Shown: one piece after another, positions 17,311 through 50,471 of the stretch
Position numbering within the stretch: the stretch's first letter is position 1
Layout of the letters: every line of letters begins with the position of its first letter
Source: Marsupella aquatica
Lineage: Eukaryota; Plantae; Marchantiophyta
DNA length: 64,000 nucleotides
Assembly: GCA_973895155.1 (NCBI GenBank)
Contig: OZ316892.1
Span: 386,917-450,916, forward strand
Direction of reading: 5' to 3'
Position numbers and translations under genes: made by a program
Notes under the pieces: model-generated
Told to the model about the DNA's origin: nothing
The model's input: only the letters and a program-made list of their open reading frames with translations
Databases searched by the model: none

Positions 17311-17425
17311 TGTGATGCCTAGACAGGAATCACTCGGCCGGTTAAGTGGGTAAAGCAGGAAGGCACCCTAGGAACACCTTAGTATAGGGACAAAACAAGG
17401 AAAATATAAACAATTAGGGGCAACC

Positions 17426-20400: not shown

Positions 20401-21049
20401 GGAGGCCAAAAACGAGCTGGAGGGGGCACGTAAGGACCTGGATGAAACCCAAGAGGAGTTGGAGGAAATCACGAGGAAGATGGAGAACCTACAGCGGCCG
20501 GCCGACAACCAAACAGAGCGGCTGAAGAAACAAGCCGCAGTATTTAAATGCTTAGCTGCAGCAGGTCCATCTCCCGTTGGGACAAACCAGTTACCAGGGG
20601 TGGTAATTGCCGAAGGACAAGCCGCGCCAACTGCACCAGTGCCGGAAGTAAGTGGGAAGGGGAAGGGACCAGCTGCCGAGCCACCAACGAAGAAGAAGCG
20701 GAAACCTTCAGGGTCAAGGAGTAATACGACTTCACAGGCCGTGGTGATCAAGGAGGTAGACCCAGCACCGACCCCAGACAGGGTCACGGCTAAGGATCCA
20801 ACTACCCTAGGGGAAGGGGAGGCCGAAGCCGAGGGAGTGGCTGAAGCCGAAGCCGTGGGAGTGGCTGAGGCCGAAGCCGTGGGTATTGCCGAGGCCGGTG
20901 TCGAGGCTGAACCCGAAGGTGGACCCAGTCAGGCCGATGGAGAGTTGACTCAGTCAAGGGCAGGTAATCTGTCAGAGAATGAACCTACGGCAGTGGCTGA
21001 GGAGGAAGTGTTGGGGGCGTCCATTGAGGATCCACCACCAGTGTCGTGA
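17426..21049 (+). CDS. LTR-encoded 1207-aa accessory protein (basic N-terminus, PMD/Transposase_32-like motif, acidic linker, long coiled coil, acidic tail), intact
   Basis: Open for 3.6 kb from an ACCATGG start at LTR position 116; LLEFVGSWEPETN..YGKDFYLTPKVIAEVFGLPIG; heptad-rich E/K/Q/L region ~19760-20545. Confidence 0.88.
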   Translation: MEPGQRPEVRLRVKTRLGLGRVKRRRLGRINGKKDRQRGGVRSACRRWWLICEHKLGRRLREANYCQLLRQALGERVDTDDRPKEGMSNVNQAAHFWGCLFERATEYIKTYEDEESERAARERQELARLWELQKTAFLGGELIKDEFLWTPTSNQLDDLLFCKDSVVGIREAIKNCNDIHWELKGSTERWTQATVLGETSTAAEMKRKGAVNDEATPAKRTRSAAPKRPAEQQSRRQGEAEEEEVDPIKAIPTRDDTWKGWAATLPVEVQLHFAREEDACFTAMQTKKYQGFMAGSGLEAFVRLPWLKPEVPESDLLEFVGSWEPETNCTRIYGKDFYLTPKVIAEVFGLPIGNKTKVDTRKTLPDKEFRSFPGPSTKNGFFRNTCTNPHIGEMIDFLRVTMHCNLPRAEIGKAQVYLAERPDPSRDYNGYLLNQLKKILKEEQQVIGMGSVSRLGYHMPLLCRYARGQTFAPVLPLQVRAPEEAPTPRPLAEKPQPPVSPTIEQVFRPRKEDLPMQQPGMQSLLKLLEKEKKSASATTTATATMQDTTTEVGLHRLTRENPFAGDKERIRPESKPGVRMYVGTSSSESEAELPEAPTDEEEREKPDVQEVEEAVEDCSHDNSGYGSDHHVPGVRTCGWFVPTLPRVVRGDPNQQSSPESPPPDVAPPSFDGIKQTVQEFQERIKQEEEAALAKEKDLPGGDWPEDIRRLAKKGSKPLATIEEIRRTAWEQRPRWAMPITSTYSTYAKNRAMEYGEMCGELALGIFGEELEVGPFFHREQLEKHQLEEAVALERSKKDEVIRRLRRMEAEIEDLRAAKKAQDELRIKRHKLNIMQGQLDTAQADNQNIKDKLTQTQEELADTIKEREKWKQELKNTEEAHITANSRAMAETQRKEWALKGELEKIRGALEQKEAELGKSYQGIMALQQELASLTASFKADLREKDEMLEQTYAKMNQMESVIIAELDKELRATQEERATLKKELEEAHREQEEAKNELEGARKDLDETQEELEEITRKMENLQRPADNQTERLKKQAAVFKCLAAAGPSPVGTNQLPGVVIAEGQAAPTAPVPEVSGKGKGPAAEPPTKKKRKPSGSRSNTTSQAVVIKEVDPAPTPDRVTAKDPTTLGEGEAEAEGVAEAEAVGVAEAEAVGIAEAGVEAEPEGGPSQADGELTQSRAGNLSENEPTAVAEEEVLGASIEDPPPVS

Positions 21050-33300: not shown

Positions 33301-33464
33301 CAGGGACAGTGGATTTTCTGCAGGCGTTGTGGCAGAGCCGACGGGGTCCACAACGCCATCGATCATCGGCAAGGAATAAATACCAAGGGATCGGCATACA
33401 AGCCGATTACGAGGGCAGAACAAATCGAGGCCCTATTAGAAGCCGAGAGAGCACAGCGGCCTAA
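30387..33464 (+). CDS. gag: Gag-protease ORF, copy 1 (open; the C-terminal ~28 aa arise from a 1-nt deletion near 33377)
   Basis: Retrotrans_gag-like FHGRGDEDPDEWLDDF..GEARPWY; three CX2CX4HX4C knuckles; protease IDGGSG and LLIGRPWL. Confidence 0.92.
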   Translation: MTDLTPREERVIQRERARLQQLTGWHDTQRLRGAERAGSSETGSGVEEDIPEEESVRRSESPTDMGEPEARPDERPGTRLSQRSRIHYKAFHGRGDEDPDEWLDDFEGTAAANGELAIKMQILPGLFKGEARPWYRALDVEDQAIWDIFKTLFVKEFRPIGTSELAVLKLGQLRFKENKSFRKFLQRFQKLVRRTKTNASEGMQLQWLVNALPQKMSFAIRKENPETLAEAIKDIQLYINADITSRKKQLKSESSSSEEGSPHKKKDKKKKHPKKSRSDKSSSDSGSSKSESSSSSEEEKTRKRKGRRRGKTKVKMEAKPPDNIVALTEQLKAIIAEVKPKKKVVQEDSSVWCALCYKTGHHKDACPKLNTNHVRHVAEIRPCQGEVEYFLGDAADSVFGISETGARDLSNRPASLWSGLRNNPGEMYPRIIQNPSVPPRPNVQRFAACYNCGQPGHFARECPNARKQGDGQPAQLCMGCRQEGHMLGQCPTWLAGLAANHKLLPIKILPPGTTPGGVQINHIELGWQEDAEAEFVPSDDEAEALSTFSEEDLDHDCYRVSTRSTRRKERWDGLAKNKGKVTEERIDSSSTSTEGEGRAPAIQVSHEPTSETNPSQDSDFNRDHPKLFYPSVTASVKEQLRELETLENTEAIAKDVKRAKALFASEDPTAVETSVAKLAESKTETPPEEKPIVPYDLAKDVLESRVSATVGQLLKNSPYFRKQLRKAILGKPRLPKVATRSDVLMIEEDQGAPALPLMIQGELLLRVPIDGGSGVCIMIDSTAKGWGLTPEMTGRVLNMANGYQVIPTGVLTGIKTEIGGIFFSINYVVMKPVNPTSFRLLIGRPWLYLAEVIEDWGKKQFTFGTPSITVSWDTKDDHRKSIREVDGYDSGLESADEVRWLECLTNLTEEGVFGPEVAPSGLWQEPMEGDLEEEDEEVEDCFTIESTFLAAIPEEVKDVDQLDETAKWGAVAGTVDFLQALWQSRRGPQRHRSSARNKYQGIGIQADYEGRTNRGPIRSRESTAA
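33311..33370 (+). promoter_or_regulatory. putative -1 frameshift signal, copy 1
   Basis: G_GAT_TTT then GGCGTTGTGG...CCACAACGCC stem. Confidence 0.7.
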
Positions 33465-34955
33465 CTCTCAGGAGCAAGAGGTGGATGAGATGGACAGACA
33501 CGATCTAGAGCCAAGGCAGGAAGGGGAGCCGACCACTAATTCAAAACCGAATAGACCGGTAAGGGGACAATCTATGGACACCAAGGAAGGGACCGACTCG
33601 GCTAGTCCAGCCGAGATCCCAGTTTATGGAGGTATGAGATTAGAGAGACTGGAAGCCGAACTGGACCCGAATTTGAAGAAGCAGATTAATATGATCCAAG
33701 CACGGCAATATCGGAAGCTCGACTTAGGAGAGGGAAGAGAACTGAACTTAGGGAGAAACCTAGCACCTGAGCTCGAGAAAGAGATCAGTGACTTATTGAT
33801 TGAATTTCAGGATGTGTTTGCATGGAGTCACCAAGATCTAAAGGGAGTAGATCCAACACTAGGGGAACATCGAATTGATCTCATGTTAGGAGCCAAATCA
33901 TTTCGACAACCAATTCGAAGGATGAACCCGAAGTATTCCCTGCTGGTCAAAACAGAAATCGACAAACTAGTGGAAGCTGGATTCATCACTCCAGTCCTGC
34001 ATTCAGACTGGGTGTCTCCAATTGTGATAGTTCCCAAGAAAGCTGGACCCGATGGTAAACCCAAGATCCGGGTTTGTCAGGATTACAGGAAGCTGAATGA
34101 AGCAACATTAAAAGACCATTTTCCTTTACCGTTTACTAATATGGTACTAGACATGGTAGCCAGTCATGAACTATATTCATTCATGGATGGATACTCTAGT
34201 TATAACCAAATCAGGATTCGGCAGGAAGACCAAATCAAGACGGCCTTCATCACGGAATGGGGGATCTATGTCTTCAATCGTATGCCGTTTGGACTCTGCA
34301 ACGCACCAGCTATGTTCCAACGATTAATGGTGAACATTTTTCATGATTACTTGAGAAAGTTCATGGAAATCTTCATTGATGACTTTGCAGTATTCGGGAA
34401 GGCATCGAAACATGCTAAATACCTCAGGAAAACCTTCATGAGATGTAGAGAGGTGGGTCTCAAGTTACACCCAGATAAATGTTTTTTTGCAGTAACCGAG
34501 GGGGTGCTACTAGGTCACAAGGTATCAAGGAAGGGCATTGAGATTGACAAAGGTAAGCTAGCAGTATGGCTAGATATCATGCAACCTAAGAACATAAAGG
34601 ATGTAAGATCCTTCTTGGGATGCATTGGTTACTATCGCCGGTTCATCAAGGATTTTGCCAAGCTAGCTTTACCATTAACCAATATGCTCAAGGCAGGAGC
34701 AGACTTCGAACCCACACCCGAACGAGTCACAGCGGTGGTAGAATTAAAGCAGATGTTAGTAGAGGCCCCAGTCATGATAGCACCGGACTGGAACAAAGAT
34801 TTTCATGTTTTTGTAGATGTCTCGGGCTTCTGTATTGGCTCAGTACTAAGTCAGTTGGATGAGAAAGGAAGGGACCATCCCATATACTTCGCAAGCCGTC
34901 AGCTTGCCGATGCCGAACGGAACTACTCTACCACGGAAAGAGAAGCATTAGGAGT
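33379..34955 (+). pseudogene. pol: pol copy 1: RT plus partial RNase H, truncated exactly at the start of LTR D; no integrase or PPT
   Basis: CQDYRKLN, MPFGLCNAP, FIDD; EREALGV joined to TGTGATG; upstream 1-nt deletion breaks the frame after the shift site. Confidence 0.93.
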
Positions 34956-37900
34956 TGTGATGCCTAGACAGGAATCACTCGGCCGGTTAAGTGGGTAAAG
35001 CAGGAAGGCACCCTAGGAACACCTTAGTATAGTGACAAAACAAGGAAAATATAAACAATTAGGGGCAACCATGGAACCCGGGCAGAGGCCGGAGGTAAGG
35101 CTGAGGGTGAAAACCCGATTAGGGTTAGGGCGCGTTAAGCGTCGGCGGCTAGGAAGGATCAACGGGAAGAAGGACCGGCAGAGGAGAGGGGTAAGGAGCG
35201 CTTGCAGGAGATGGTGGCTCATTTGCGAGCACGAACTAGGCAGACGACTACGGGAGGCCAACTACTGTCAGCTGCTTAGGCAAGCACTCGGGGAGAGAGT
35301 AGATACCGACGATCGACCTAAGGAGGGTATGAGCAACGTCAATCAAGCGGCACATTTCTGGGGATGCCTGTTCGAACGGGCAACTGAGTACATCAAGACT
35401 TACGAGGACGAGGAGTCAGAAAGGGCAGCTCGAGAACGGCAGGAGCTCGCTCGATTGTGGGAGCTGCAGAAGACGGCTTTCTTAGGAGGCGAACTCATCA
35501 AGGACGAGTTCCTGTGGACGCCTACTTCCAATCAACTCGACGATCTTCTGTTTTGCAAAGACAGCGTCGTCGGCATCCGAGAGGCCATCAAGAACTGCAA
35601 CGACATACACTGGGAATTAAAGGGTAGCACGGAAAGGTGGACCCAGGCAACGGTGCTAGGAGAAACCTCCACGGCAGTAGAGATGAAGAGGAAGGGAGCC
35701 GTCAACGATGAAGCCTCCCCGGCAAAAAGAACGAGGTCGGCGGCACCAAAGAAGCCAGCCGAGCAGCAGAGCAGGAGGCAGGGAGAAGCCGAAGAGGAGG
35801 AGGTCGATCCCATCAAGGCCATTCCAACCAGGGATGACACCTGGAAGGGCTGGGCGGCAACCCTACCGGTGGAGGTGCAACTACATTTTGCACGGGAGGA
35901 GGATGCATGCTTTACGGCCATGCAGACCAAGAAGTACCAAGGCTTCATGGCCGGATCCGGCTTGGAGGCCTTTGTAAGATTACCATGGCTGAAGCCGGAG
36001 GTACCGGAGTCAGACCTATTAGAATTCGTGGGGTCATGGGAACCCGAGACCAATTGCACGAGGATATATGGGAAGGATTTCTATCTTACTCCCAAGGTAA
36101 TTGCCGAAGTGTTTGGCCTGCCGATAGGCAATAAGACCAAAGTTGATACCAGGAAGACCTTGCCTGACAAGGAGTTCCGGTCGTTCCCCGGGCCATCAAC
36201 GAAGAATGGCTTCTTCCGGAACACCTGCACCAACCCGCACATAGGAGAGATGATCGACTTCTTGCGGGTGACCATGCATTGTAACTTACCGAGGGCAGAG
36301 ATCGGCAAGGCACAGGTCTATCTGGCAGAAAGGCCAGACCCAAGCCGGGACTACAACGGGTACCTCCTCAACCAATTGAAGAAGATCTTAAAGGAGGAGC
36401 AGCAGGTAATCGGCATGGGGAGCGTGTCGCGGCTTGGCTATCACATGCCGCTGTTGTGCCGGTATGCCAGAAGTCAGACTTTTGCCCCGGTACTTCCCCT
36501 GCAGGTAAGGGCACCCGAGGAAGCTCCAACGCCGAGGCCGTTGGCTGAGAAGCCTCAACCACCTGTTAGTCCTACGATCGAGCAGGTGTTTAGGCCCAGG
36601 AAGGAAGACTTGCCGATGCAGCAACCAGGCATGCAGAGTCTGCTGAAACTACTGGAGAAAGAAAAGAAATCGGCATCGGCAACAACAACGGCAACGGCAA
36701 CAATGCAGGACACTACTATAGAGGTAGGCCTACACCGGCTCACAAGAGAAAACCCCTTTGCTGGAGACAAGGAGAGAATCAGGCCAGAATCCAAGCCAGG
36801 TGTTCGAATGTACGTGGGAACCTCAAGCTCCGAATCTGAGGCAGAATTGCCTGAAGCTCCTACCGACGAAGAGGAGAGGGAGAAGCCGGACGTCCAAGAG
36901 GTAGAGGAGGCAGTGGAGGACTGCAACCATGATAATTCCGGCTATGGGTCGGACCATCACGTTCCAGGAGTAAGGACCTGTGGCCGGTTTGTCCCCACAC
37001 TTCCAAGGGTAGTGCGAGGGGACCCCAACCAGCAGAGTAGCCCTGAGTCTCCCCCACCAGATGTTGCTCCCCCGAGCTTCGACGGCATAAAACAGACGGT
37101 GCAGGAATTTCAGGAGCGAATCAAGCAGGAGGAAGAGGCCGCCCTGGCTAAGGAAAAGGATTTACCAGGAGGAGATTGGCCGGAGGACATCAGGCGGCTA
37201 GCCGAAAAAGGAAGCAAACCTCTAGCCACGATTGAAGAGATCCGCAGGACGGCGTGGGAGCAGAGGCCACGATGGCCGATGCCGATCACTTCTACTTACT
37301 CCACCTACGCTAAGAATAGAGCCATGGAGTATGGTGAGATGTGTGGGGAACTTGCGCTCGGCATCTTTGGAGAGGAGTTGGAGGTAGGACCCTTTTTCCA
37401 TAGGGAGCAGTTGGAGAAGCACCAATTAGAAGAAGCGGTGGCTTTAGAGAGAAGCAAGAAGGACGAGGTCATTCGGCGGCTTAGGAGGATGGGAGCCGAG
37501 ATTGAAGATCTAAGGGCGGCCAAGAAAGCCCAAGATGAACTGCGGATTAAACGACATAAGCTGAACATCATGCAGGGGCAGTTGGACGCCGCGCAGGCTG
37601 ATAATCAGAATATCAAGGATAAACTGACTCAGACGCAGGAAGAGTTGGCCGACACGATCAAAGAGAGGGAAAAGTGGAAGCAAGAGCTGAAGAATACAGA
37701 GGAGGCCCACATAACAGCCAACAGCCGGGCCATGGCGGAGACCCAAAGAAAGGAATGGGCGTTGAAAGGGGAGCTCGAGAAAATCCGCGGAGCCCTTGAG
37801 CAGAAGGAGGTCGAGTTAGGGAAATCCTATCAAGGGATTATGGCGCTGCAGCAGGAGCTTGCATCCCTGACGGCCAGCTTCAAGGCCGACCTAAGGGAGA

Positions 37901-39615
37901 AGGACGAGATGCTCGAACAGACTTACGCCAAGATGAACCAGATGGAGTCTGTTATCATTGCAGAGCTCGACAAGGAGCTAAGAGCAACCCAGGAGGAGAG
38001 GGCTACCTTGAAGAAGGAATTGGAGGAAGCCCACAGGGAGCAGGAGGAGGCCAAAAACGAGCTGGAGGGGGCACGTAAGGACCTGGATGAAACCCAAGAG
38101 GAGTTGGAGGAAATCACGAGGAAGATGGAGAACCTACAGCGGCGGGCCGACAACCAAACAGAGCGGCTGAAGAAACAAGCCGCAGTATTTAAATGCTTAG
38201 CTGCAGCAGGTCCATCTCCCGTTGGGACAAACCAGTTACCAGGGGTGGTAATTGCCGAAGGACAAGCCGCATCAACTGCACCAGTGCCGAAAGTAAGTGG
38301 GAAGGGGAAGGGACCAGCTGCCGAGCCACCAACGAAGAAGAAGCGGAAACCTCCAGGGTCAAGGAGTAATACGACTTCACAGGCCGTGGTGATCAAGGAG
38401 GTAGACCCAGCACCGACCCCAGACAGGGTCACGGCTAAGGATCCAACTACCCTAGGGGAAGGGGAGGCCGAAGCCGAGGGAGTGGCTGAAGCCGAAGCCG
38501 TGGGAGTGGCTGAGGCCGAAGCCGTGGGTATTGCCGAGGCCGGTGTCGAGGCTGAAGCCGAAGGTGGACCCAGTCAGGCCGATGGAGAGTTGACTCGGTC
38601 AAGGGCAGGTAATCTGTCAGTAGGCGGGCCAATGGCAGTGGCTGAGGAGGAAGTGTTGGGGGCGTCCATTGAGGATCCACTGCCGGTGTCGTGACGGTGC
38701 AAGGGCGCCGTTCCTTTTAGGGAGGGCGGACGTGGAGGGAGGAGGCGTGAGTGGGCAGGGCGGGCGTGGATCTCCACGTTTAGGATTAGGATCAGAACCA
38801 GGAGCGGCCCTGACACTTAGCTTAGTGGGATTGCGGTCCCACTGGTAGGAGCAACACTTGTGCTCCTGCCTTGCTGTACATAGGTAGATTCGGGCAAGTA
38901 GATTACTGTTAAGTAGATTAGGCTTACGATGCAAAGAATGGCGGATCCACTACCAGGATAAGTACCTAGGCAGCGGGGAGCTCAGGGCCTCTTCTTTAGC
39001 AAGTTTTTAGTTTGCACCAGTCGGGCTGGGATCAAGTAGTACAAGAAGCTCTCGGTTAGTCATACAGTGACCCTTGTGTATATTCATGTTTCCTCATGCC
39101 TAAGAGCTGAATAGAGTTGGCCTCACGGCTTAGTTCGCAGAACTTGTGTATGAGATGTACTGTTTGTATGGCAAGTGCATGGTATGACTCAGTCAGAATG
39201 AGTCATTTTGCTATTTGTGTGTCGCATTAACTTGTGTGAAGAGTGCCCACATCAACAGAAGGAAGGAAAGTAAGCAGGGGAGTGAGAGTTGGATGTGTCG
39301 AGCTGAGAGAGGTCTTAGCGGCTTAACCAAGCCTATTGGGGATCATTCCGGCGGCGGAATCCAAACATACCTAACAAAACGGAGGGGAAGACAGGGGAAG
39401 ACAGGGGAAGGCCTATATTAGGCCGGCTACGTATCTCATGACCCGATGAAGGATCTGTCCAGTATATGTGTGTAAAATGTTAATAGTAGTAGTAGAAGGT
39501 TAGCAGCGTCCCATACCGCTAAGCCGCGGAAACGGCCTCGCCAAGCACGAAACCTGCGGGAATCGGCTTGAGCTGGGGGGTTTCTTGGGTTTAGGGAGCC
39601 ATGGGACGCACCACA
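34956..39615 (+). repeat. complete 4660-bp LTR D, shared between two internal regions
   Basis: TGTGATG...CACCACA followed by TTTT and the PBS. Confidence 0.95.
35071..38694 (+). CDS. LTR-encoded 1207-aa accessory protein, intact copy in LTR D
   Basis: Near-identical to 17426-21049; the GTG at 35032 is polymorphic among copies, so the ATG at 35071 is preferred. Confidence 0.88.
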   Translation: MEPGQRPEVRLRVKTRLGLGRVKRRRLGRINGKKDRQRRGVRSACRRWWLICEHELGRRLREANYCQLLRQALGERVDTDDRPKEGMSNVNQAAHFWGCLFERATEYIKTYEDEESERAARERQELARLWELQKTAFLGGELIKDEFLWTPTSNQLDDLLFCKDSVVGIREAIKNCNDIHWELKGSTERWTQATVLGETSTAVEMKRKGAVNDEASPAKRTRSAAPKKPAEQQSRRQGEAEEEEVDPIKAIPTRDDTWKGWAATLPVEVQLHFAREEDACFTAMQTKKYQGFMAGSGLEAFVRLPWLKPEVPESDLLEFVGSWEPETNCTRIYGKDFYLTPKVIAEVFGLPIGNKTKVDTRKTLPDKEFRSFPGPSTKNGFFRNTCTNPHIGEMIDFLRVTMHCNLPRAEIGKAQVYLAERPDPSRDYNGYLLNQLKKILKEEQQVIGMGSVSRLGYHMPLLCRYARSQTFAPVLPLQVRAPEEAPTPRPLAEKPQPPVSPTIEQVFRPRKEDLPMQQPGMQSLLKLLEKEKKSASATTTATATMQDTTIEVGLHRLTRENPFAGDKERIRPESKPGVRMYVGTSSSESEAELPEAPTDEEEREKPDVQEVEEAVEDCNHDNSGYGSDHHVPGVRTCGRFVPTLPRVVRGDPNQQSSPESPPPDVAPPSFDGIKQTVQEFQERIKQEEEAALAKEKDLPGGDWPEDIRRLAEKGSKPLATIEEIRRTAWEQRPRWPMPITSTYSTYAKNRAMEYGEMCGELALGIFGEELEVGPFFHREQLEKHQLEEAVALERSKKDEVIRRLRRMGAEIEDLRAAKKAQDELRIKRHKLNIMQGQLDAAQADNQNIKDKLTQTQEELADTIKEREKWKQELKNTEEAHITANSRAMAETQRKEWALKGELEKIRGALEQKEVELGKSYQGIMALQQELASLTASFKADLREKDEMLEQTYAKMNQMESVIIAELDKELRATQEERATLKKELEEAHREQEEAKNELEGARKDLDETQEELEEITRKMENLQRRADNQTERLKKQAAVFKCLAAAGPSPVGTNQLPGVVIAEGQAASTAPVPKVSGKGKGPAAEPPTKKKRKPPGSRSNTTSQAVVIKEVDPAPTPDRVTAKDPTTLGEGEAEAEGVAEAEAVGVAEAEAVGIAEAGVEAEAEGGPSQADGELTRSRAGNLSVGGPMAVAEEEVLGASIEDPLPVS

Positions 39616-39619
39616 TTTT

Positions 39620-39637
39620 TGGCGCTAGATGGAGGGG
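39620..39637 (+). promoter_or_regulatory. primer-binding site, copy 2
   Basis: TGGCGCTAGATGGAGGGG after LTR D. Confidence 0.75.
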
Positions 39638-39684: not shown

Positions 39685-42678
39685 ATGACTGACCTTACGC
39701 CGAGGGAAGAAAGAGTGATTCAACGGGAGAGAGCTCGACTGTAGCAGCTCGCCGGGTGGCATGATACACAACGACTGAGAGGGGCAGAAAGAGCTGGTAG
39801 CTCCGAAACTGGAAGTGGCGTCGAAGAAGACATACCAGAAGAAGAGTCGGTAAGGAGAAGTGAGTCTCCAACCGACATGGGGGAACCAGAGGCACGGCCA
39901 GACGAGAGGCCAGGGACCAGATTGAGCCAGCGGTCGCGCATACATTACAAGGCATTTCATGGGAGAGGAGATGAGGATCCGGACGAATGGTTGGATGATT
40001 TCGAGGGAACCGCTGCAGCAAATGGAGAATCGGCCATCAAGATGCAGATTCTTCCCGGCCTGTTCAAGGGTGAGGCTAGGCCTTGGTACAGAGCATTAGA
40101 TGTGGAAGATCAAGCCATCTGGGATATCTTCAAACCACTCTTTGTTAAGGAGTTTCGACCCATTGGAACTTCATAACTAGCAGTGCTGAAGTTGGGACAA
40201 CTTCGGTTCAAGGAGAACAAATCCTTCAGGAAGTTCTTGCAACGCTTTCAGAAACTGGTAAGACGTACAAAGACCAATGCATCTGAAGGTATGCAACTTC
40301 AATGGTTGGTGAATGCTTTGCCACAGAAGATGAGTTTTGCAATTAGGAAGGAGAACCCGGAGACTTTAGCCGAAGCAATTAAGGATATTCAATTATACAT
40401 TAATGCAGATATCACAAGCCGGAAGAAACAGCTTAAGTCTGAGAGTTCCTCATCAGAGGAGGGATCACCCCATAAGAAAAAAGATAAGAAGAAGAAACAT
40501 CCCAAGAAGTCTAGAAGTGATAAGTCAAGCTCGGATAGTGGGAGTAGCAAGAGTGAGTCATCTTCTAGTTCTGAAGAAGAAAAAACTAGGAAAAGGAAGG
40601 GCAGAAGGAGAGGGAAGACGAAAGTCAAGATGGAGGCTAAGCCACCAAATAACATCGTAGCCCTTACCGAGCAACTTAAGGCTATCATTGTAGAGGTAAA
40701 ACCAAAGAAGAAGGTAGTACAGGAGGATAGCTCTGTATGGTGTGCCTTATGTTATAAAACCGGACACCATAAAGATGCGTGTCCTAAGCTTAATACTAAT
40801 CATGTTCGGCATGTGGCCGAGATCAGACCATGTCAGGGAGAAGTAGAGTACTTTTTGGGAGATGCCGCTGATAGTGTTTTCGGCATCAGTGAGACTGGAG
40901 CACGAGACCTATCCAACAGACCTGCATCTCTGTGGTCAGGATTAAGGAACAATCCAGGAGAGATGTATCCTCGGATTATTCAGAACCCGTCAGTACCTCC
41001 TAGGCCGAATGTGCAAAGATTTGCGGCGTGCTATAATTGTGGTCAACCTGGCCATTTTGCTAGAGAATGCCCGAATGCACGCAAACAGGGTGATGGACAA
41101 CCAGCTCAGCTATGTATGGGATGCCGACAGGAAGGTCATATGCTAGGGCAATGTCCTACTTGGTTGGCAGGCCTGGCCGCAAATCATAAGCTTTTGCCGA
41201 TCAAGATCTTACCGCCAGGTACTACCCCCGGAGGAGTTCAAATCAACCACATCGAACTAGGATGGCAAGAGGATGCCGAGGCAGAGTTCGTACCATCTGA
41301 TGATGAGGCCGAAGCCCTATCAACCTTCTCAGAGGAGGATTTAGATCATGATTGCTACCGGGTCTCTACTCGATCTACCAGAAGGAAGGAAAGGTGGGAT
41401 GGGCTGGCCAAAAATAAAGGGAAGGTTACGGAGGAAAGGATCGACTCTTCGTCAACATCAACAGAAGGAGAAGGGAGGGCTCCGGCAATACAGGTAAGCC
41501 ATGAGCCCACCAGTGAAACCAATCCTTCACAAGATAGCGACTTCAATCGAGATCATCCTAAGTTGTTCTACCCCTCTGTTACGGCTAGTGTTAAGGAACA
41601 ACTAAGAGAATTAGAAACCCTGGAGAATACCGAAGCCATTGCCAAGGATGTAAAACGAGCAAAAGCATTGTTTGCTTCGGAAGACCCAACAGCTGTGGAG
41701 ACTAGCGTGGCAAAACTGGCCGAATCCAAGAGGGAAACACCACCAGAAGAGAAGCCGATTGTTCCCTATGACCTGGCTAAAGATGTACTAGAATCTAGAG
41801 TCTCGGCAACAGTAGGTCAACTATTGAAAAATAGCCCGTACTTCCGGAAGCAATTAAGGAAGGCTATTCTCGGCAAGCCGAGATTACCCAAGGTAGCAAC
41901 CAGATCCGACGTACTAATGATAGAAGAAGATCAAGGAGCCCCAGCATTACCATTAATGATTCAAGGAGAATTATTACTACGGGTACCCATCGATGGAGGA
42001 TCAGGGGTATGTATTATGATTGATTCAACAGCAAAAGGGTGGGGTCTAACACCGGAGATGACTGGAAGAGTGTTGAACATGGCCAATGGATATCAGGTCA
42101 TTCCGACGGGAGTGTTAATCGGCATCAAGACAGAGATAGGAGGTATCTTCTTTAGCATTAACTATGTAGTAATGAAGCCGGTAAATCCTACGTCATTCCG
42201 GCTATTGATTGGTAGGCCATGGCTGTACCTAGCCGAGGTAATAGAAGATTGGGGTAAAAAGCAGTTCACTTTCGGGACCCCCTCTATCACGGTATCCTGG
42301 GACACTAAGGATGACCGTAGGAAAAGCATAAGGGAAGTAGATGGGTACGATAGTGGACTGGAGTCAGCCAATGAAGTACGTTGGTTAGAATGCCTCACTA
42401 ACCTAACCGAAGAAGGTGTCTTTGGACCAGAGGTACCCCCCAGCGGATTATGGCAAGAACCAATGGAAGGTGACTTGGAAGAAGAAGACGAAGAGGTCGA
42501 GGACTGCTTTACAATAGAATCCACCTTTTTAGCTGCAATTCCGGAGGAAGTTAAGGATGTAGACCAATTGGATGAAACGGCTAAGTGGGGAGCAGTAGCA
42601 GGGACAGTGGATTTTCTGCAGGCGTTGTGGCAGAGCCGACGGGGTCCACAACGCCATCGATCATCGGCAAGGAATTAA
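39685..42678 (+). pseudogene. gag: Gag-protease ORF, copy 2, with two nonsense mutations
   Basis: CAG>TAG at 39742-39744 and GAA>TAA at 40174-40176 relative to copy 1; natural stop TAA at 42676-42678. Confidence 0.92.
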
Positions 42679-45600
42679 ATACCAAGGGATCGGCATACAA
42701 GCCGATTACGAGGGCAGAACAAATTGAGGCCCTATTAGAAGCCGAGAGAGCACAGCGGCCTAACTCTCAGGAGCAAGAGGTGGATGAGATGGACAGACAT
42801 GATCTAGAGCCAAGGCAGGAAGGGGAGCCGACCACTAATTCAAAACCAAATAGACCGGTAAGGGGACAATCTATGGACACCAAGGAAGGGACCGACTCGG
42901 CTAGTCCAGCCGAGATCCCAGTTTATGGAGGTATGAGATTAGAGAGACTGGAAGCCGAACTGGACCCGAATTTGAAGAAGCAGATTAATATGATCCAAGC
43001 ACGGCAATATCGGAAGCTCGACTTAGGAGAGGGAAGAGAACTGAACTTAGGGAGAAACCTAGCACCTGAGCTCGAGAAAGAGATCAGTGACTTATTGATT
43101 GAATTTCAGGATGTGTTTGCATGGAGTCACCAAGATCTAAAGGGAGTAGATCCAACACTAGGGGAACATCGAATTGATCTCATGTTAGGAGCCAAATCAT
43201 TTCGACAACCAATTCGAAGGATGAACCCGAAGTATTCCCTGCTGGTCAAAACAGAAATCGACAAACTAGTGGAAGCTGGATTCATCACTCCAGTCCTGCA
43301 TTCAGACTGGGTGTCTCCAATTGTGATAGTTCCCAAGAAAGCTGGACCCGATGGTAAACCCAAGATCCGGGTTTGTCAGGATTACAGGAAGCTGAATGAA
43401 GCAACATTAAAAGACCATTTTCCTTTACCGTTTACTGATATGGTACTAGACATGGTAGCCAGTCATGAACTATATTCATTCATGGATGGATACTCTGGTT
43501 ATAACCAAATCAGGATTCGGCAGGAAGACCAAATCAAGACGGCCTTCATCACGGAATGGGGGATCTATGTCTTCAATCGTATGCCGTTTGGACTCTGCAA
43601 CGCACCAGCTATGTTCCAACGATTAATGGTGAACATTTTTCATGATTACTTGAGAAAGTTCATGGAAATCTTCATTGATGACTTTGCAGTATTCGGGAAG
43701 GCATCGAAACATGCTAAATACCTCAGGAAAACCTTCATGAGATGTAGAGAGGTGGGTCTCAAGTTACACCCAGATAAATGTTTTTTTGCAGTAACCGAGG
43801 GGGTGCTACTAGGTCACAAGGTATCAAGGAAGGGCATTGAGATTGACAAAGGTAAGCTAGCAGTATGGCTAGATATCATGCAACCTAAGAACATAAAGGA
43901 TGTAAGATCCTTCTTGGGATGCATTGGTTACTATCGCCGGTTCATCAAGGATTTTGCCAAGCTGGCTTTACCATTAACCAATATGCTCAAGGCAGGAGCA
44001 GACTTCGAACCCACACCCGAACGAGTCACAGCGGTGGTAGAATTGAAGCAGATGTTAGTAGAGGCCCCAGTCATGATAGCACCGGACTGGAACAAAGATT
44101 TTCATGTTTTTGTAGATGTCTCGGGCTTCTGTATTGGCTCAGTACTAAGTCAGTTGGATGAGAAAGGAAGGGACCATCCCATATACTTCGAAAGCCGTCA
44201 GCTTGCCGATGCCGAACGGAACTACTCTACCACGGAAAGAGAAGCATTAGGAGTCATTTATTCTTGTAAAAAGTTTAGGCATTATTTACTAGGGTACAAG
44301 GTAATCTTTCATACTGATCATGAAAGTTTGAAGTACCTAGTCAATAAGCCGGACCTTACAGGCAGAGTAGCAAGATGGATTTTGCTATTACAGGAGTTTG
44401 ACTATGAGCTGAGGATCAAGCCGGGAAAGTTACATGCCAATGCCGACTTCTTTTCAAGGATCACAGGTAAACCTGCCATGGATTGCATCGATGATCGATT
44501 CCCCGACGAGGAGCTATTCGTTGTGGAAATAGCTGGTACATGGTACCCTGAGATTTTACAATTTCTCAGCACTTCCAGATTACAGCCAGGATTAAGCCGA
44601 GAGCAAGCCGCAGTCTTTGTGCGGAAGGTCAGACAGTATCAGTGCATTAAAGGCATACTGCACAAGCATGGAATCAACGGCACGATTCAAAGGTGTTTGG
44701 AAAAGAGAGAGGTAAAACGAGTCCTACGGGCCATGCATGGAGAGGAGGCCGGAGGACATTTTGCCCCAGTAACCACGTCTAAGAAGATATTAAATGCCGG
44801 TTACTGGTGGCCCACCTTGCACAAAGGTGTCTATCAGTTTATCAAACAATGCGATCCTTGTCAACGAGAGGGAGGACCAAGGGCGTCCACCAGGCATCCA
44901 CTGCACCCTATTCTACCTCTGGCACCATTCGAGAAGTGGGGTATTGATTACATTGGACCTCTGAAACCACTGACCCACCCTCGACGGAACAAGTACATAA
45001 TCCTGGCTACGGATTATGCAACTAAATGGGTAGAGGCCAGACCAACAACGAAGGATGATGCAATTACTACGGCTAGATTCATGTATGAGCAGATCTTCAC
45101 CAGGTATGGAGCACCCCTAGAATTAGTTAGTGATAGAGGAACCCATTTTTTGAATGATATAATTAGTCGTTTAAATGAGCAGTATTTAGTTAAACATAGG
45201 CCTACTACTCCCTACCATCCAAAGGCAAACGGGTTGACAGAACGAGCAAACGGAATCATAGGAAAGATATTGAACAAGACAGTAGCTCAGAACAAACTCG
45301 ATTGGGATGATAAATTGTTTGCTGCTGTTTTTGCTTACAATCTGGCCTATAAATCCACTACCGGTCATACACCCTTCTTCTTAACCTTTGGACAAGAAGC
45401 CCTGGTACCCATGCAACTTGAGATACCGACATTTCAAGTTACAATTGAGGAAAGAGCCTCAGCAGAGGAGAGCCTAAAGGAGCGAGAATATAGGTTAGAA
45501 GCGTTAGAGGAAGCGAGAATGATTTCAGCCGAGAGAGTAGAATATAGACAGAACATCATGAAGCAGCAGTATGATAAAAGGTTAAAAGTAGTTAGTATTC

Positions 45601-45851
45601 ATACCGGTGATCTTGTGCTACTTTATGACAGTAGGTATAGTAGGTTTCCAGGAAAGCTTTACACTCGCTGGTTAGGACCCTTTAGAGTAACCATGATGTT
45701 CCCCAATGGCTCCGTGCAATTGGCCAACATTACGGGAGAGGTATATCCAGTTCGCATCCATTATGACCGCCTCAAGAAATACTATATGGACGAAGATGAA
45801 GTTGTTCGCGAGGACGCTTCACAATTAAGTGGGGAGCTATGTGATGCCTAG
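42585..45851 (+). CDS. pol: Pol RT-RNase H-integrase, intact frame, -1 relative to gag-PR; no chromodomain and no extra archaeal-type RNase H
   Basis: KDHFPLPF, YSFMDGYSGYNQI, FIDD, VDVSG..EREAL..TDH..ADFFSR, FPDEELF, H..GGHF..CDPC, GIDYIGP, SDRGTHF, ERANG, WLGPF; the stop codon lies inside LTR E. Confidence 0.96.
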   Translation: MGSSSRDSGFSAGVVAEPTGSTTPSIIGKELNTKGSAYKPITRAEQIEALLEAERAQRPNSQEQEVDEMDRHDLEPRQEGEPTTNSKPNRPVRGQSMDTKEGTDSASPAEIPVYGGMRLERLEAELDPNLKKQINMIQARQYRKLDLGEGRELNLGRNLAPELEKEISDLLIEFQDVFAWSHQDLKGVDPTLGEHRIDLMLGAKSFRQPIRRMNPKYSLLVKTEIDKLVEAGFITPVLHSDWVSPIVIVPKKAGPDGKPKIRVCQDYRKLNEATLKDHFPLPFTDMVLDMVASHELYSFMDGYSGYNQIRIRQEDQIKTAFITEWGIYVFNRMPFGLCNAPAMFQRLMVNIFHDYLRKFMEIFIDDFAVFGKASKHAKYLRKTFMRCREVGLKLHPDKCFFAVTEGVLLGHKVSRKGIEIDKGKLAVWLDIMQPKNIKDVRSFLGCIGYYRRFIKDFAKLALPLTNMLKAGADFEPTPERVTAVVELKQMLVEAPVMIAPDWNKDFHVFVDVSGFCIGSVLSQLDEKGRDHPIYFESRQLADAERNYSTTEREALGVIYSCKKFRHYLLGYKVIFHTDHESLKYLVNKPDLTGRVARWILLLQEFDYELRIKPGKLHANADFFSRITGKPAMDCIDDRFPDEELFVVEIAGTWYPEILQFLSTSRLQPGLSREQAAVFVRKVRQYQCIKGILHKHGINGTIQRCLEKREVKRVLRAMHGEEAGGHFAPVTTSKKILNAGYWWPTLHKGVYQFIKQCDPCQREGGPRASTRHPLHPILPLAPFEKWGIDYIGPLKPLTHPRRNKYIILATDYATKWVEARPTTKDDAITTARFMYEQIFTRYGAPLELVSDRGTHFLNDIISRLNEQYLVKHRPTTPYHPKANGLTERANGIIGKILNKTVAQNKLDWDDKLFAAVFAYNLAYKSTTGHTPFFLTFGQEALVPMQLEIPTFQVTIEERASAEESLKEREYRLEALEEARMISAERVEYRQNIMKQQYDKRLKVVSIHTGDLVLLYDSRYSRFPGKLYTRWLGPFRVTMMFPNGSVQLANITGEVYPVRIHYDRLKKYYMDEDEVVREDASQLSGELCDA
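42609..42668 (+). promoter_or_regulatory. putative -1 programmed ribosomal frameshift signal (slippery heptamer plus stem-loop/pseudoknot)
   Basis: G_GAT_TTT in gag phase (42609-42615), 5-nt spacer, perfect 10-bp stem 42621-42630/42646-42655, loop GCCGA complementary to TCGGC at 42664-42668. Confidence 0.75.
45827..45836 (+). promoter_or_regulatory. polypurine tract
   Basis: AAGTGGGGAG, 3 nt before the TG of LTR E, within integrase codons. Confidence 0.75.
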
Positions 45852-48800
45852 ACAGGAATCACTCAGCCGGTTAAGTGGGTAAAGCAGGAAGGCACCCTAG
45901 GAACACCTTAGTATAGTGACAAAACAAGGAAAATATAAACAATTAGGGGCAACCATGGAACCCGGGCAGAGGCCGGAGGTAAGGCTGAGGGTGAAAACCC
46001 GATTAGGGTTAGGGCGCGTTAAGCGTCGGCGGCTAGGAAGGATCAACGGGAAGAAGGACCGGCAGAGGAGAGGGGTAAGGAGCGCTTGCAGGAGATGGTG
46101 GCTCATTTGCGAGCACGAACTAGGCAGACGACTACGGGAGGCCAACTACTGTCAGCTGCTTAGGCAAGCACTCGGGGAGAGAGTAGATACCGACGATCGA
46201 CCTAAGGAGGGTATGAGCAACGTCAATCAAGCGGCACATTTCTGGGGATGCCTGTTCGAACGGGCAACTGAGTACATCAAGACTTACGAGGACGAGGAGT
46301 CAGAAAGGGCAGCTCGAGAACGGCAGGAGCTCGCTCGATTGTGGGAGCTGCAGAAGACGGCTTTCTTAGGAGGCGAACTCATCAAGGACGAGTTCCTGTG
46401 GACGCCTACTTCCAATCAACTCGACGATCTTCTGTTTTGCAAAGACAGCGTCGTCGGCATCCGAGAGGCCATCAAGAATTGCAACGACATACACTGGGAA
46501 TTAAAGGGTAGCACGGAAAGGTGGACCCGGGCAACGGTGCTAGGAGAAACCTCCACGGCAGCAGAGATGAAGAGGAAGGGAGCCGTCAACGATGAAGCCA
46601 CCCCGGCAAAAAGAACGAGGTCGGCGGCACCAAAGAAGCCAACCGAGCAGCAGAGCAGGAGGCAGGGAGAAGCCGAAGAGGAGGAGGTCGATCCCATCAA
46701 GGCCATTCCAACCAGGGATGACACCTGGAAGGGCTGGGCGGCAACCCTACCGGTGGAGGTGCAACTACATTTTGCACGGGAGGAGGATGCATGCTTTACG
46801 GCCATGCAGACCAAGAAGTACCAAGGCTTCATGGCCGGATCCGGCTTGGAGGCCTTTGTAAGATTACCATGGCTGAAGCCGGAGGTACCGGAGTCAGACC
46901 TATTAGAATTCGTGGGGTCATGGGAACCCGAGACCAATTGCACAAGGATATATGGGAAGGATTTCTATCTTACTCCCAAGGTAATTGCCGAAGTGTTTGG
47001 CTTGCCGATGGGCAATAAGACCAAAGTTGATACCAGGAAGACCTTGCCTGACAAGGAGTTCCGGTCGTTCCCCGGGCCATCAACGAAGAATGGCTTCTTC
47101 CGGAACACCTGCACCAACCCGCACATAGGAGAGATGATCGACTTCTTGCGGGTGACCATGCATTGTAACTTGCCGAGGGCAGAGATCGGCAAGGCACAGG
47201 TCTATCTGGCAGAAAGGCCAGACCCAAGCCGGGACTACAACGGGTACCTCCTCAACCAATTGAAGAAGATCTTAAAGGAGGAGCAGCAGGTAATCGGCAT
47301 GGGGAGCGTGTCGCGGCTTGGCTATCACATGCCGCTGTTGTGCCGGTATGCCAGAGGTCAGACTTTTGCCCCGGTACTTCCCCTGCAGGTAAGGGCACCC
47401 GAGGAAGCTCCAACACCGAGGCCGTTGGCTGAGAAGCCTCCACCACCTGTTAGTCCTACGATCGAGCAGGTGTTTAGGCCCAGGAAGGAAGACTTGCCGA
47501 TGCAGCAACCAGGCATGCAAAGTCTGCTGAAACTACTGGAGAAAGAAAAGAAATCGGCATCGGGAACAACAACAACAACGGCAACGGCAACAATGCAGGA
47601 CACTACTACAGAGGTAGGCCTACACCGGCTCACAAGAGAAAACCCCTTTGCTGGAGACAAGGAGAGAATCAGGCCGGAATCCAAGCCAGGTGTTCGAATG
47701 TACGTGGGAACCTCAAGCTCCGAATCTGAGGCAGAATTGCCTGAAGCTCCTACCGACGAAGAGGAGAGGGAGAAGCCGGACGTCCAAGAAGTAGAGGAGG
47801 CAGTGGAGGACTGCAGCCATGATAATTCCGGCTATGGGTCGGACCATCACGTTCCAGGAGTAAGGACCTGTGGCCGGTTTGTCCCCACACTTCCAAGGGT
47901 AGTGCGAGGGGACCCCAACCAGCAGAGTAGCCCTGAGTCTCCCCCACCAGATGTTGCTCCCCCGAGCTTCGACGGCATAAAACAGACGGTGCAGGAATTT
48001 CAGGAGCGAATCAAGCAGGAGGAAGAGGCCGCCCTGGCTAAGGAAAAGGATTTACCAGGAGGAGATTGGCCGGAGGACATCAGGCGGCTAGCCGAAAAAG
48101 GAAGCAAACCTCTAGCCACGATTGAAGAGATCCGCAGGACGGCGTGGGAGCAGAGGCCACGATGGGCGATGCCGATCACTTCTACTTACTCCACCTACGC
48201 TAAGAATAGAGCCATGGAGTATGGTGAGATGTGTGGGGAACTTGCGCTCGGCATCTTTGGAGAGGAGTTGGAGGTAGGACCCTTTTTCCATAGGGAGCAG
48301 TTGGAGAAGCACCAATTAGAAGAAGCGGTGGCTTTAGAGAGAAGCAAGAAGGACGAGGTCATTCGGCGGCTTAGGAGGATGGGAGCCGAGATTGAAGATC
48401 TAAGGGCGGCCAAGAAAGCCCAAGATGAACTGCGGATTAAACGACATGAGCTGAACATCATGCAGGGGCAGTTGGACGCCGCGCAGGCTGATAATCAGAA
48501 TATCAAGGATAAACTGACTCAGACGCAGGAAGAGTTGGCCGACACGATCAAAGAGAGGGAGAAGTGGAAGCAAGAGCTGAAGAATACAGAGGAGGCCCAC
48601 ATAACAGCCAATAGCCGGGCCATGGCGGAGACCCAAAGAAAGGAATGGGCGTTGAAAGGGGAGCTCGAGAAAATCCGCGGAGCCCTTGAGCAGAAGGAGG
48701 TCGAGTTAGGGAAATCCTATCAAGGGATTATGGCGCTGCAGCAGGAGCTTGCGTCCCTGACGGCCAGCTTCAAGGCCGACCTAAGGGAGAAGGACGAGAT

Positions 48801-50471
48801 GCTCGACAAACTTACGCCAAGATGAACCAGATGGAGTCTGTCATCATTGCAGAGCTCGACAAGGAGCTAAGAGCAACCCAGGAGGAGAGGGCTACCTTGA
48901 AGAAGGAATTGGAGGAAGCCCACAGGGAGCAGGAGGAGGCCAAAAACGAGCTGGAGGGGGCACGTAAGGACCTGGATGAAACCCAAGAGGAGTTGGAGGA
49001 AATCACGAGGAAGATGGAGAACCTACAGCGGCAGGCCGACAACCAAACAGAGCGGCTGAAGAAACAAGCCGCAGTATTTAAATGCTTAGCTGCAGCAGGT
49101 CCATCTCCCGTTGGGACAAACCAGTTACCAGGGGTGGTAATTGCCGAAGGACAAGCCGCGTCAACTGCACGAGTGCCGGAAGTAAGTGGGAAGGGGAAGG
49201 GACCAGCTCCCGAGCCACCAACGAAGAAGAAGCGGAAACCTCCAGGGTCAAGGAGTAATACGACTTCACAGGCCGTGGTGATCAAGGAGGTAGACCCAGC
49301 ACCGACCCCAGACAGGGTCACGGCTAAGGATCCAACTACCCTAGGGGAAGGGGAGGCCGAAGCCGAGGGAGTGGCTGAAGCTGAAGCCGTGGGTATTGCC
49401 GAGGCCGGTGTCGAGGCTGAAGCCGAAGGTGGACCCAGTCAGGCCGATGGAGAGTTGACTCGGTCAAGGGCAGGTAATTTGTCAGTAGGCGGGCCAACGG
49501 CAGTGGCTGAGGAGGAAGTGTTGGGGGCGTCCATTGAGGATCCACCACCGGTGTCGTGACGGTGCAAGGGCGCCGTTCCTTTTAGGGAAGGCGGACGTGG
49601 AGGGAGGAGGCGTGAGTGGGCAGGGCGGGCGCGGATCTCCACGTTTAGGATTAGGATCAGAACCAGGAGCGGCCCTGACACTTAGCTTAGTGGGATTGCG
49701 GTCCCACTGGTAGGAGCAACACTTGTGCTCCTGCCTTGCTGTACGTAGGTAGATTCGGGCAAGTAGATTACTGTTAAGTAGATTAGGCTTACGATGCAAA
49801 GAATGGCGGATCCACTACCAGGATAAGTACCTGGGCAGCGGGGAGCTCAGGGCCTCTTCTTTAGCAAGTTTTTAGTTTGCACCAGCCGGGCTGGGATCAA
49901 GTAGTACGAGAAGCTCTCGGTTAGTCATACAGTGACCCTTGTGTATATTCATGTTTCCTCATGCCTAAGAGCTGAATAGAGTTGGCCTCACGGCTTAGTT
50001 CGCAGAACTTGTGTATGAGATGTACTGTTTGTATGGCAAGTGCATGGTATGACTCAGTCAGAATGAGTCATTTTGCTATTTGTGTGTCGCATTAACTTGT
50101 GTGAAGAGTGCCCACATCAACAGAAGGAAGGAAAGTAAGCAGGGGAGTGAGAGTTGGATGTGTCGAGCTGAGAGAGGTCTTAGCGGCTTAACCAAGCCTA
50201 TTGGGGATCATTCCGGCGGCGGAATCCAAACATACCTAACAGGAAGACAGGGGAAGACAAGGGAAGGCCTATATTAGGCCGGCTACGTATCTCATGACCC
50301 GATGAAGGATCTGTCCAGTATATGTGTGTAAAATGTTAATAGTAGTAGTAGAAGGTTAGCAGCGTCCCATGCCGCTAAGCCGCGGAAACGGCCTCGCCAA
50401 GCACGAAACCTGCGGGAATCGGCTTGAGCTGGGGGGTTTCTTGGGTTTAGGGAGCCATGGGACGCACCACA
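45840..50471 (+). repeat. complete LTR E (4632 bp), 3' LTR of the full-length element 34956-50471
   Basis: TGTGATG...CACCACA; small indels relative to LTR D. Confidence 0.95.
45955..49559 (+). pseudogene. LTR protein copy with a 1-nt frameshift near 48806
   Basis: GCTCGACAAACTT versus GCTCGAACAGACTT in other copies; split into 969-aa and 245-aa ORFs. Confidence 0.88.

What the first reader, a model, noticed from the sequence alone, without database searches (positions are those of the whole stretch)
42585..42678. -1 ribosomal frameshift with pseudoknot placed between protease and RT
Seen: gag-PR and RT-RH-INT overlap by 94 nt with pol in the -1 frame. The overlap holds G_GAT_TTT in the correct phase, a 5-nt spacer, a perfect 10-bp stem (GGCGTTGTGG/CCACAACGCC) and loop GCCGA able to pair with downstream TCGGC. 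The signal is identical in copy 1 (33311-33370). Known: G_GAU_UUU is the shift site of dianthoviruses such as RCNMV; most plant Gypsy elements have a single gag-pol ORF, and Ogre separates PR from RT by an intron. Inference: Gag-PR is made in excess over RT/IN by programmed frameshifting.
Basis: partly seen in the sequence, partly recalled or inferred. Interest (0 to 1): 0.75.

Follow-up and report, generated by a model that had tools for sequence, protein, structure and literature searches.

The report
Retrotransposon frameshift between protease and polymerase
In this jumping gene, likely from a liverwort-type plant, the capsid-plus-protease gene overlaps the reverse transcriptase gene one base out of step, with a slippery sequence and a predicted RNA hairpin in the overlap, so ribosomes likely slip back one base there to make a small share of the copying enzymes, much as avian retroviruses do.

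Summary
In this Ty3/gypsy element (nearest named relatives are liverwort elements) Gag and a retroviral-fold protease share one frame ending at 42678. RT-RH-INT lies in the -1 frame and overlaps it by 94 nt. The overlap holds one in-phase G_GAT_TTT, followed 5 nt later by the longest perfect stem (10 bp) in 6.2 kb; 1 of 20,000 shuffles matched this. Family contigs down to 81% identity keep the offset, and variants fall on third codon positions in the gag frame before the site and the pol frame after it. Correction: copy 1 has the same signal, but a one-base indel puts its RT in +1, so it gives no support; both copies are defective. The second (pseudoknot) stem is weak, with 5-19% chance. No RNA data or covariation were available. 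More distant relatives use one ORF or a stop after Gag, so the signal looks family-specific. Verdict: programmed -1 frameshift about 0.78, pseudoknot about 0.45. It works like Rous sarcoma virus Gag-PR/pol. A surveyed table of plant lineages lists the PR|RT split only as an intron or a stop codon.

The parts
34955..39615 (+). 5' LTR of element copy 2 (TG...CA, 4.66 kb; shared as 3' LTR of copy 1); carries a 1225-codon sense ORF at 35017-38694
   Evidence: self-BLAST and ends
39620..39637 (+). primer-binding-site-like TGG stretch 4 nt behind the LTR; primer tRNA not identified
   Evidence: sequence
39685..42678 (+). gag-protease frame (capsid, zinc knuckles, protease, acidic linker); this copy has in-frame stops at 39742 and 40174
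41902..42330 (+). aspartic protease, retroviral fold, in the gag frame (D-G-G-S-G at 41992)
42609..42615 (+). slippery heptamer G_GAT_TTT in gag codon phase
42616..42620 (+). 5-nt spacer
42621..42655 (+). stem 1: perfect 10-bp stem with 15-nt loop; predicted pair probability 0.89-1.0 in 200-700-nt contexts
42635..42668 (+). possible stem 2 of an H-type pseudoknot (42635-42639 with 42664-42668; loops 4, 6 and 8 nt); weakly supported
42676..42678 (+). stop codon of the gag-protease frame, 20 codons after the shift site
42688..42707 (+). second predicted hairpin (7 bp) holding a second TCGGC/GCCGA pair; role unknown
42585..45851 (+). pol ORF in the -1 frame: RT, one RNase H, integrase; no added RNase H, no chromodomain hit
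45827..45836 (+). polypurine-tract-like stretch before the 3' LTR
45840..50471 (+). 3' LTR of copy 2
33311..33377 (+). same signal in copy 1, followed by a one-base indel that puts RT out of -1 register; copy 1 joins RH directly to the LTR at 34955

Best explanation
This is a Ty3/gypsy LTR retrotransposon whose Gag-protease frame overlaps the RT-RH-integrase frame by 94 nt at a -1 offset, and it likely joins them by programmed -1 ribosomal frameshifting at G_GAU_UUU, stimulated by the predicted 10-bp stem 5 nt downstream. Shown: the frames, the protease fold upstream of the site, the heptamer and its phase, the stem, and the family-wide offset. Inferred: a ribosome with GAU in the P site and UUU in the A site pauses at the stem; a minority slip back onto GGA/UUU and go on for 1077 codons to make Gag-PR-RT-RH-IN (about 2050 codons). 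Most stop 20 codons later as Gag-PR (about 1000 codons, counted from the first ATG). Protease would then be as abundant as capsid, while RT and integrase are rare. The stimulator may be a pseudoknot (about 0.45) or a plain stem-loop.
For: (1) The only in-phase heptamer of the overlap sits 5 nt before the strongest hairpin of the 6.2-kb internal region; 1 of 20,000 shuffles matched, and fold z was -2.8 and -3.9. (2) G_GA-type sites are listed for some umbra- and dianthoviruses, G_GAU_UUU for pea enation mosaic virus RNA 2, and 5-9 nt is the usual spacer (PMC5009743 passages). (3), contigs of 4 of 11 listed runs (421, 32, 1179 and 6 laid): all 6 listed indel places lie at 42551-42572 and sum to two in-frame 3-nt losses; none lies in or after the overlap. 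Four shown contigs from 3 runs (81, 88, 90 and 98% identity) bridge the gag stop without gaps. (4) Of the 40 variant places shown (of 212), 22 of 35 upstream fall on gag third positions (19 of 31 in the protease-to-site linker, p 0.0013) and 4 of 5 downstream on pol third positions (p 0.045). (5) One diverged contig end (X2, table 7, compared by eye) keeps all 10 bases of the stem's 3' arm while 5 of 7 bases of the next loop differ. (6) The -1 frame has no stop from 42585 on, and the gag frame closes at once after 42678.
Against: Frameshifting itself was not measured. No compensatory base changes could be counted. Neither copy in the window is intact, and copy 1 is out of -1 register. The signal was not seen in more distant relatives. 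The closest protein, P0063 (71% over RT-RH), is called as one ORF, though its DNA was not seen. Of 14 metagenome loci, 11 hold both PR and the RT start; 9 have them in one frame, and the other 2 (L005, L013) are broken copies. None of 114 PR-bearing proteins ends like this Gag-PR, and a search for its linker found 0 of 31 candidates. The variant rows are a tool-chosen subset, many from a few contigs. Contigs drop rare variants, and one run may be the window's own source. Two low-depth joints skip 86 and 139 nt (not multiples of three; one contig each, letters between unknown), though neither touches the site. Stem 2: a 5-bp match arises in 5-14% of shuffles and in 74-168 of 872 element windows; freeing its bases costs 5.8 kcal/mol against a -6.9 duplex.
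Confidence: 0.78

Rival explanations
1. The frames are joined by splicing, as in Ogre: an intron between PR and RT is removed from some transcripts.
For: Ogre has GAG-PROT and RT ORFs separated by a partly spliced intron (PMC6317226 section 13). No transcript could be examined here.
Against: The frames overlap rather than being separated by non-coding DNA. No donor-like GT[AG][AT][AG] occurs in 42280-42678 (only that stretch and pattern were tested). The linker has 15-20% T and no pyrimidine-rich acceptor among 13 YAG sites. It shows codon-position constraint in the gag frame up to the site. Splicing would leave the heptamer-plus-stem unexplained.
Confidence: 0.06
2. Pol is made on its own from a shorter RNA or by internal initiation at an ATG in the pol frame (first at 42789), with protease supplied by Gag-PR.
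For: The ATG at 42789 has G at -3 and +4. Foamy viruses make Pol from a separate RNA (PMC12789967 passage). The P0004 cluster holds four proteins of 965-968 aa, and P0004 itself starts just before RT without protease.
Against: The pol frame stays open 68 codons upstream of that ATG, right through the heptamer. This reading does not explain the signal's position. Gene callers start any second ORF at a Met.
Confidence: 0.07
3. The offset is an old frameshift mutation in a once single ORF, amplified in a non-autonomous subfamily; heptamer and stem are coincidence.
For: The nearest relative is called as one ORF (P0063). Both window copies are broken, and one differs by an indel right at the junction.
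Against: The offset is kept down to 81% identity, both frames show synonymous bias on their own side of the site, and the coincidence has about 1 in 3,000 to 1 in 20,000 odds.
Confidence: 0.07
4. Polymerase slippage on the short T run adds a base in some RNAs or cDNAs and fuses the frames.
For: Slippage at shift motifs is reported for HIV RT (PMC5737442, search listing and abstract start only).
Against: The run is only four T; no indel at the heptamer is listed among family contigs; a downstream stem at ribosome spacing fits translation.
Confidence: 0.02

Closest known systems
Rous sarcoma virus / avian sarcoma-leukosis virus Gag-PR and pol
   Same: Protease is part of Gag (PMC12789967 passage); pol is reached by a -1 frameshift with a pseudoknot (PMC5009743 passages).
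   Different: A vertebrate retrovirus with env and another heptamer (recalled). This is a plant Ty3/gypsy element, so the likeness is convergence of layout, not membership.
Ogre and Retand (Tat clade) plant Ty3/gypsy elements
   Same: [quoted passage not shown]
   Different: Here the frames overlap at -1 with a slippery site. The element has no added RNase H and groups with liverwort elements.
Umbravirus / dianthovirus G_GAU_UUU frameshift sites
   Same: Same heptamer as pea enation mosaic virus RNA 2; G_GA sites also listed for dianthoviruses, so plant ribosomes can shift on it.
   Different: Their stimulators are bulged stem-loops pairing with a loop kilobases away; here a local 10-bp stem with a possible local second stem. 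The exact RCNMV heptamer is recalled, not seen in a call.
Tcn1, Selgy and some SIRE elements with overlapping gag and pol
   Same: Plant LTR elements with two overlapping ORFs (GAG:o:PROT in 60%, 65% and 25%).
   Different: Their break lies before the protease; the table gives no offset or signal.
MMTV / HTLV pro-pol frameshift
   Same: A -1 shift between protease and RT.
   Different: There it is the second of two shifts, so protease is already rarer than Gag; here Gag and protease are in one frame.

Membership tests
-1 programmed ribosomal frameshift signal | Downstream ORF in the -1 frame overlapping the upstream ORF | tested here: met
   kept in family contigs
-1 programmed ribosomal frameshift signal | X_XXY_YYZ-type heptamer in zero-frame phase inside the overlap | tested here: met
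   G_GAT_TTT, an accepted G_GA variant
-1 programmed ribosomal frameshift signal | Stable 3' structure 5-9 nt from the heptamer | tested here: met
   predicted 10-bp stem at 5 nt
-1 programmed ribosomal frameshift signal | Signal conserved with compensatory changes | tested here: inconclusive
   one contig end keeps the stem arm beside a changed loop; no alignment of diverged signals was obtained
-1 programmed ribosomal frameshift signal | Measured -1 product dependent on heptamer and structure | not testable with these tools
   needs reporter, proteomics or ribosome profiling
H-type pseudoknot stimulator | Loop of stem 1 pairs with a downstream strand with workable loop lengths | tested here: inconclusive
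   5 bp, loops 4/6/8 nt; chance 5-19%; marginal energy; no Rfam family
Ty3/gypsy LTR retrotransposon | LTRs, PBS, PPT and domain order GAG-PR-RT-RH-INT | tested here: met
Tat clade (Ogre, Retand) | Additional RNase H domain | tested here: not met
   only RT_RNaseH families hit, no second RNase H between RH and INT; aRH-less Tat Z groups of liverworts not tested
Phygy | 4-bp NCGN target duplication, 7.7-10 kb, no extra ORF | tested here: not met
   array flanks match 4 of 5 bases as a 5-bp duplication; element about 15.5 kb with a long ORF in the LTR
Phygy | RT phylogeny with reference Phygy elements | not testable with these tools
   no labelled reference sequences available
Athila | RT groups with seed-plant Athila elements | tested here: not met
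   window lies in a separate clade with liverwort and unnamed proteins; the Athila label for the angiosperm rows is recalled

The most novel reading that the evidence does not exclude
A bryophyte retrotransposon family has independently evolved the alpharetrovirus layout, Gag-protease followed by a pseudoknot-driven -1 frameshift into RT, using the same heptamer as plant RNA viruses. Its clade switches freely between recoding modes: one ORF, UGA readthrough after Gag (L002, L003), a second conserved break after the protease (GS[KR]ELK-ending family), and this -1 shift. That makes the clade a natural experiment on how retroelements set Gag:protease:RT ratios.
Probability: 0.4. Interest if true: 0.75.

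Novelty: new variant of a known kind. Interest (0 to 1): 0.6.

Why it matters
How plant LTR retrotransposons make more Gag than Pol is mostly explained by splicing (PMC12786077 passage). A 2016 review, citing a 2003 survey, knew only +1 offsets in plant elements. A classical -1 signal placed after the protease would add a third way of splitting Gag-PR from RT beside the Ogre intron and the Retand stop. It would parallel avian retroviruses, predict protease at capsid levels, and supply a compact 60-nt cassette that is easy to test.

Tried and rejected
No own genome is held, so copies could not be counted genome-wide. No RNA holder was listed; this is no evidence either way. A base-by-base list of family variants inside the signal was not obtained, so covariation stays open. 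That none of the 40 shown variant places lies in 42553-42799 was not used, because the rows are tool-selected. Viral collection: 0 related loci in 3 protein scans; 18 of 18 heptamer-plus-arm pattern hits lacked the 3' arm and any RT match, so they are chance. L005 first looked like a second PR|RT shift but its frame change is inside RT. Of 80 contaminant loci in prokaryote genomes I examined 9: 8 keep the domains they hold in one frame and 1 is broken; 71 were not examined. The junction of L013 was not read in detail, and heptamers were listed for only 8 of the 14 metagenome loci. Rfam gave one chance hit (E 7.7). A PDB sequence search for the protease gave 0 hits; the fold search settled it. 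The ESM Atlas look-up of the LTR ORF gave no answer. Three look-ups of earlier findings returned nothing. Literature: 9 searches (listings only unless a paper is named as read) showed no report of a -1 shift between protease and RT in a plant retrotransposon. The 2003 survey by Gao and co-workers is not held, and subscription papers and element-level supplements I did not see may contain one.

Full report
What the element is. The finding lies in a Ty3/gypsy LTR retrotransposon. Self-comparison and the TG...CA ends define a 4.66-kb LTR (34955-39615 and 45840-50471), a primer-site-like TGG at 39620, and a purine tract before the 3' LTR. Pfam finds retrotransposon Gag and a zinc knuckle in the first frame, and RT, one RNase H and integrase in the second. 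The nearest named proteins are from the liverworts Calypogeia (62-64%) and Riccia. In an RT-RH tree (70 of 108 eligible proteins; the lower-ranked unnamed or unlabelled ones left out) the window groups with two Calypogeia proteins and the unnamed P0063 at support 1.0, apart from the angiosperm rows. A liverwort-type host is therefore inferred, not shown.

The protease is upstream of the break. Pfam gives only a weak aspartyl-protease hit (E 0.066), and a PDB sequence search gave none. The model of 41902-42330, folded with 15 aligned sequences, has pLDDT 86.8 and matches Ddi1 and HIV-1 protease folds (143 matches at E up to 0.001). It is in the gag frame, about 280 nt before the slippery site.

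The signal. The gag frame reads GTG GAT TTT CTG and stops at 42676-42678; the pol frame is open from 42585. G_GAT_TTT (42609-42615) is the only in-phase heptamer of the overlap. Five bases on begins a perfect 10-bp stem with a 15-nt loop. It is the longest of 5 perfect stems of 8 bp or more in the 6.2-kb internal region, and the 4 best of 1237 50-nt windows cover it. Of 19 relaxed heptamers, the next best has a 5-bp stem. In 20,000 shuffles, 1184 had an in-phase heptamer, 6 also a stem of 8 bp or more, and 1 a stem of 10 bp or more (post hoc, relaxed motif). The whole 64-kb window has 12 stems of 10 bp or more, 2 of them this one. Fold z-scores are -2.8 (2 of 200 shuffles as good) and -3.9 (0 of 200), and stem-1 pairs keep probability 0.89-1.0 in contexts of up to 700 nt.

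The pseudoknot is less sure. The loop's GCCGA can pair with TCGGC at 42664-42668, giving loops of 4, 6 and 8 nt. A 7-nt interstem loop is known in Visna-Maedi virus, while the IBV type needs an 11-bp stem 1 (PMC5009743 passages). A 5-bp match arises in 5-14% of shuffles and in 74 to 168 of 872 element windows. Freeing the bases costs 5.8 kcal/mol against a -6.9 duplex, and a second TCGGC/GCCGA hairpin follows at 42688-42707 (the coordinates of that hairpin were off by one and corrected). Rfam has no match.

Correction on copy 1. The signal at 33311-33370 is identical, but the two internal regions differ at only 26 of 4639 columns, so this is no independent test. The single indel among them lies at 33377 and puts copy 1's RT in +1. 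Copy 1 also runs from RH straight into the LTR, and copy 2 has two stops in gag. Which state is the family's had to be settled elsewhere.

Family evidence. Eleven runs were listed, none on record as RNA; four were laid as contigs (421, 32, 1179 and 6). All 6 listed indel places lie at 42551-42572 and add up to two 3-nt losses; none lies in the overlap or after it. Among the 31 pieces shown (1612 not shown), four from three runs bridge the gag stop without gaps at 81, 88, 90 and 98% identity; a fifth ends too close to count. Copy 2's -1 offset is thus the family state. Of 40 variant places shown (172 not shown), 22 of 35 upstream are gag third positions and 22 are synonymous; in the linker alone 19 of 31 (p 0.0013). 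Downstream 4 of 5 are synonymous third positions in the pol frame and 0 of 5 synonymous in the gag frame. One contig end in X2 keeps the 10-base 3' arm of the stem while 5 of 7 following loop bases differ. Limits: contigs hide rare variants, many rows come from a few contigs, one run may be the window's source, and two single-contig joints skip 86 and 139 nt away from the site.

Wider relatives do it differently. P0063 is called as a single Gag-PR-RT-RH ORF. Of 14 metagenome loci, 11 hold PR and the RT start, 9 in one frame; L005 and L013 are broken copies. L002 and L003 have Gag ending in the same five residues and a TGA in frame with PR-RT-RH-INT, followed by a long predicted stem-loop, and many 55%-identity proteins begin shortly before PR: a candidate readthrough group. 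Five of 114 PR-bearing proteins, from three clusters, end in GS[KR]ELK 130-170 residues after the protease, a possible second PR|RT break whose DNA I could not reach. None of the 114 ends like this Gag-PR. The signal is thus known only from this family, which is the main gap.

Mechanism and rivals. The best reading is tandem tRNA slippage at G_GAU_UUU driven by the stem, giving mostly Gag-PR and a minority of Gag-PR-RT-RH-IN (0.78). An Ogre-type intron (0.06) fits badly: no donor-like site in 42280-42678, 15-20% T, and coding constraint through the linker. Separate initiation at the ATG at 42789 (0.07) cannot be excluded without RNA. Decay plus coincidence (0.07) is opposed by the family data. 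Polymerase slippage (0.02) has only four T to work on.

Comparison with what is known. PMC6317226 (passages, sections 9 and 13, supplement file 3) lists prevailing layouts for plant lineages: the GAG-PROT | RT split appears for Ogre (spacer/intron, stop) and Retand (stop), and overlap appears only before the protease (Tcn1, Selgy, SIRE); several non-seed-plant lineages are 'not determined'. PMC5009743 (passages) gives the heptamer precedents and says a 2003 survey found only +1 offsets in plant elements. PMC12789967 (passages) states that RSV/ASLV encode protease as part of Gag. PMC12786077, PMC11963269 and PMC10508981 were seen as passages; none of the passages shown describes such a signal. 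The Ogre splicing papers and the 2003 survey were not read. Nine searches found no report of this layout in a plant element; that is absence in an open-access library only. The element fails the tested features of Tat, Phygy and seed-plant Athila and is best left as an unassigned non-seed-plant, non-chromovirus family.

Verdict. A real, family-conserved and statistically strong -1 frameshift signal at an unusual place; a standard mechanism in a new position for plants; stimulator type and activity untested. New variant of a known kind, interest 0.6.

Noticed in passing
window 35017-38694 (also 17372-21049, 45901-48825 and truncated copies): The 4.66-kb LTR itself carries an intact 1225-codon sense ORF with a long coiled-coil part and no Pfam family above cut-off; its residues 291-437 weakly match (E 1e-4) an ORF 3' of pol in L008. 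A long gene inside an LTR is unusual.
   Followed up: partly
window 16335-58155: One 42-kb tandem array of two internal regions and about eight full or 5'-truncated LTRs, 96-99% alike, flanked by a 5-bp duplication with one mismatch; several LTR ends join straight into the LTR's own ORF, and a 311-nt RT/RH fragment sits at 16504-16814.
   Followed up: partly
L002:3142-3144 and L003:1910-1912: Related elements end Gag with the same five residues and an in-frame TGA before PR-RT-RH-INT, followed 8-9 nt later by a long predicted stem-loop (-32 and -40 kcal/mol over 107 nt): candidate stop-codon readthrough.
   Followed up: partly
proteins P0141, P0146, P0172, P0287, P0288; compare window 42660-42681: Protease-bearing ORFs of three clusters end in GS[KR]ELK, suggesting another conserved break after the protease; the window's pol frame reads IIGKELN across the gag stop. 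Homology or chance is unresolved.
   Followed up: partly
window 45840-45851: The pol ORF runs through the purine tract and stops 12 nt inside the 3' LTR.
   Followed up: no
window 9654-13517 (-), 14091-14762 (-): Remains of a CACTA-type transposon (Transposase_21, DUF4216) and a cysteine-rich, PHD-like ORF fragment (label recalled).
   Followed up: no
window 4544-4984 and 60508-63716: An older 81%-identical piece of the LTR start, and a tandem repeat of about 575 nt with a 10-bp hairpin in each unit.
   Followed up: no
L033-L112: Eighty loci in bacterial and archaeal genome records encode Ty3/gypsy-type RTs, most likely eukaryotic contamination.
   Followed up: partly
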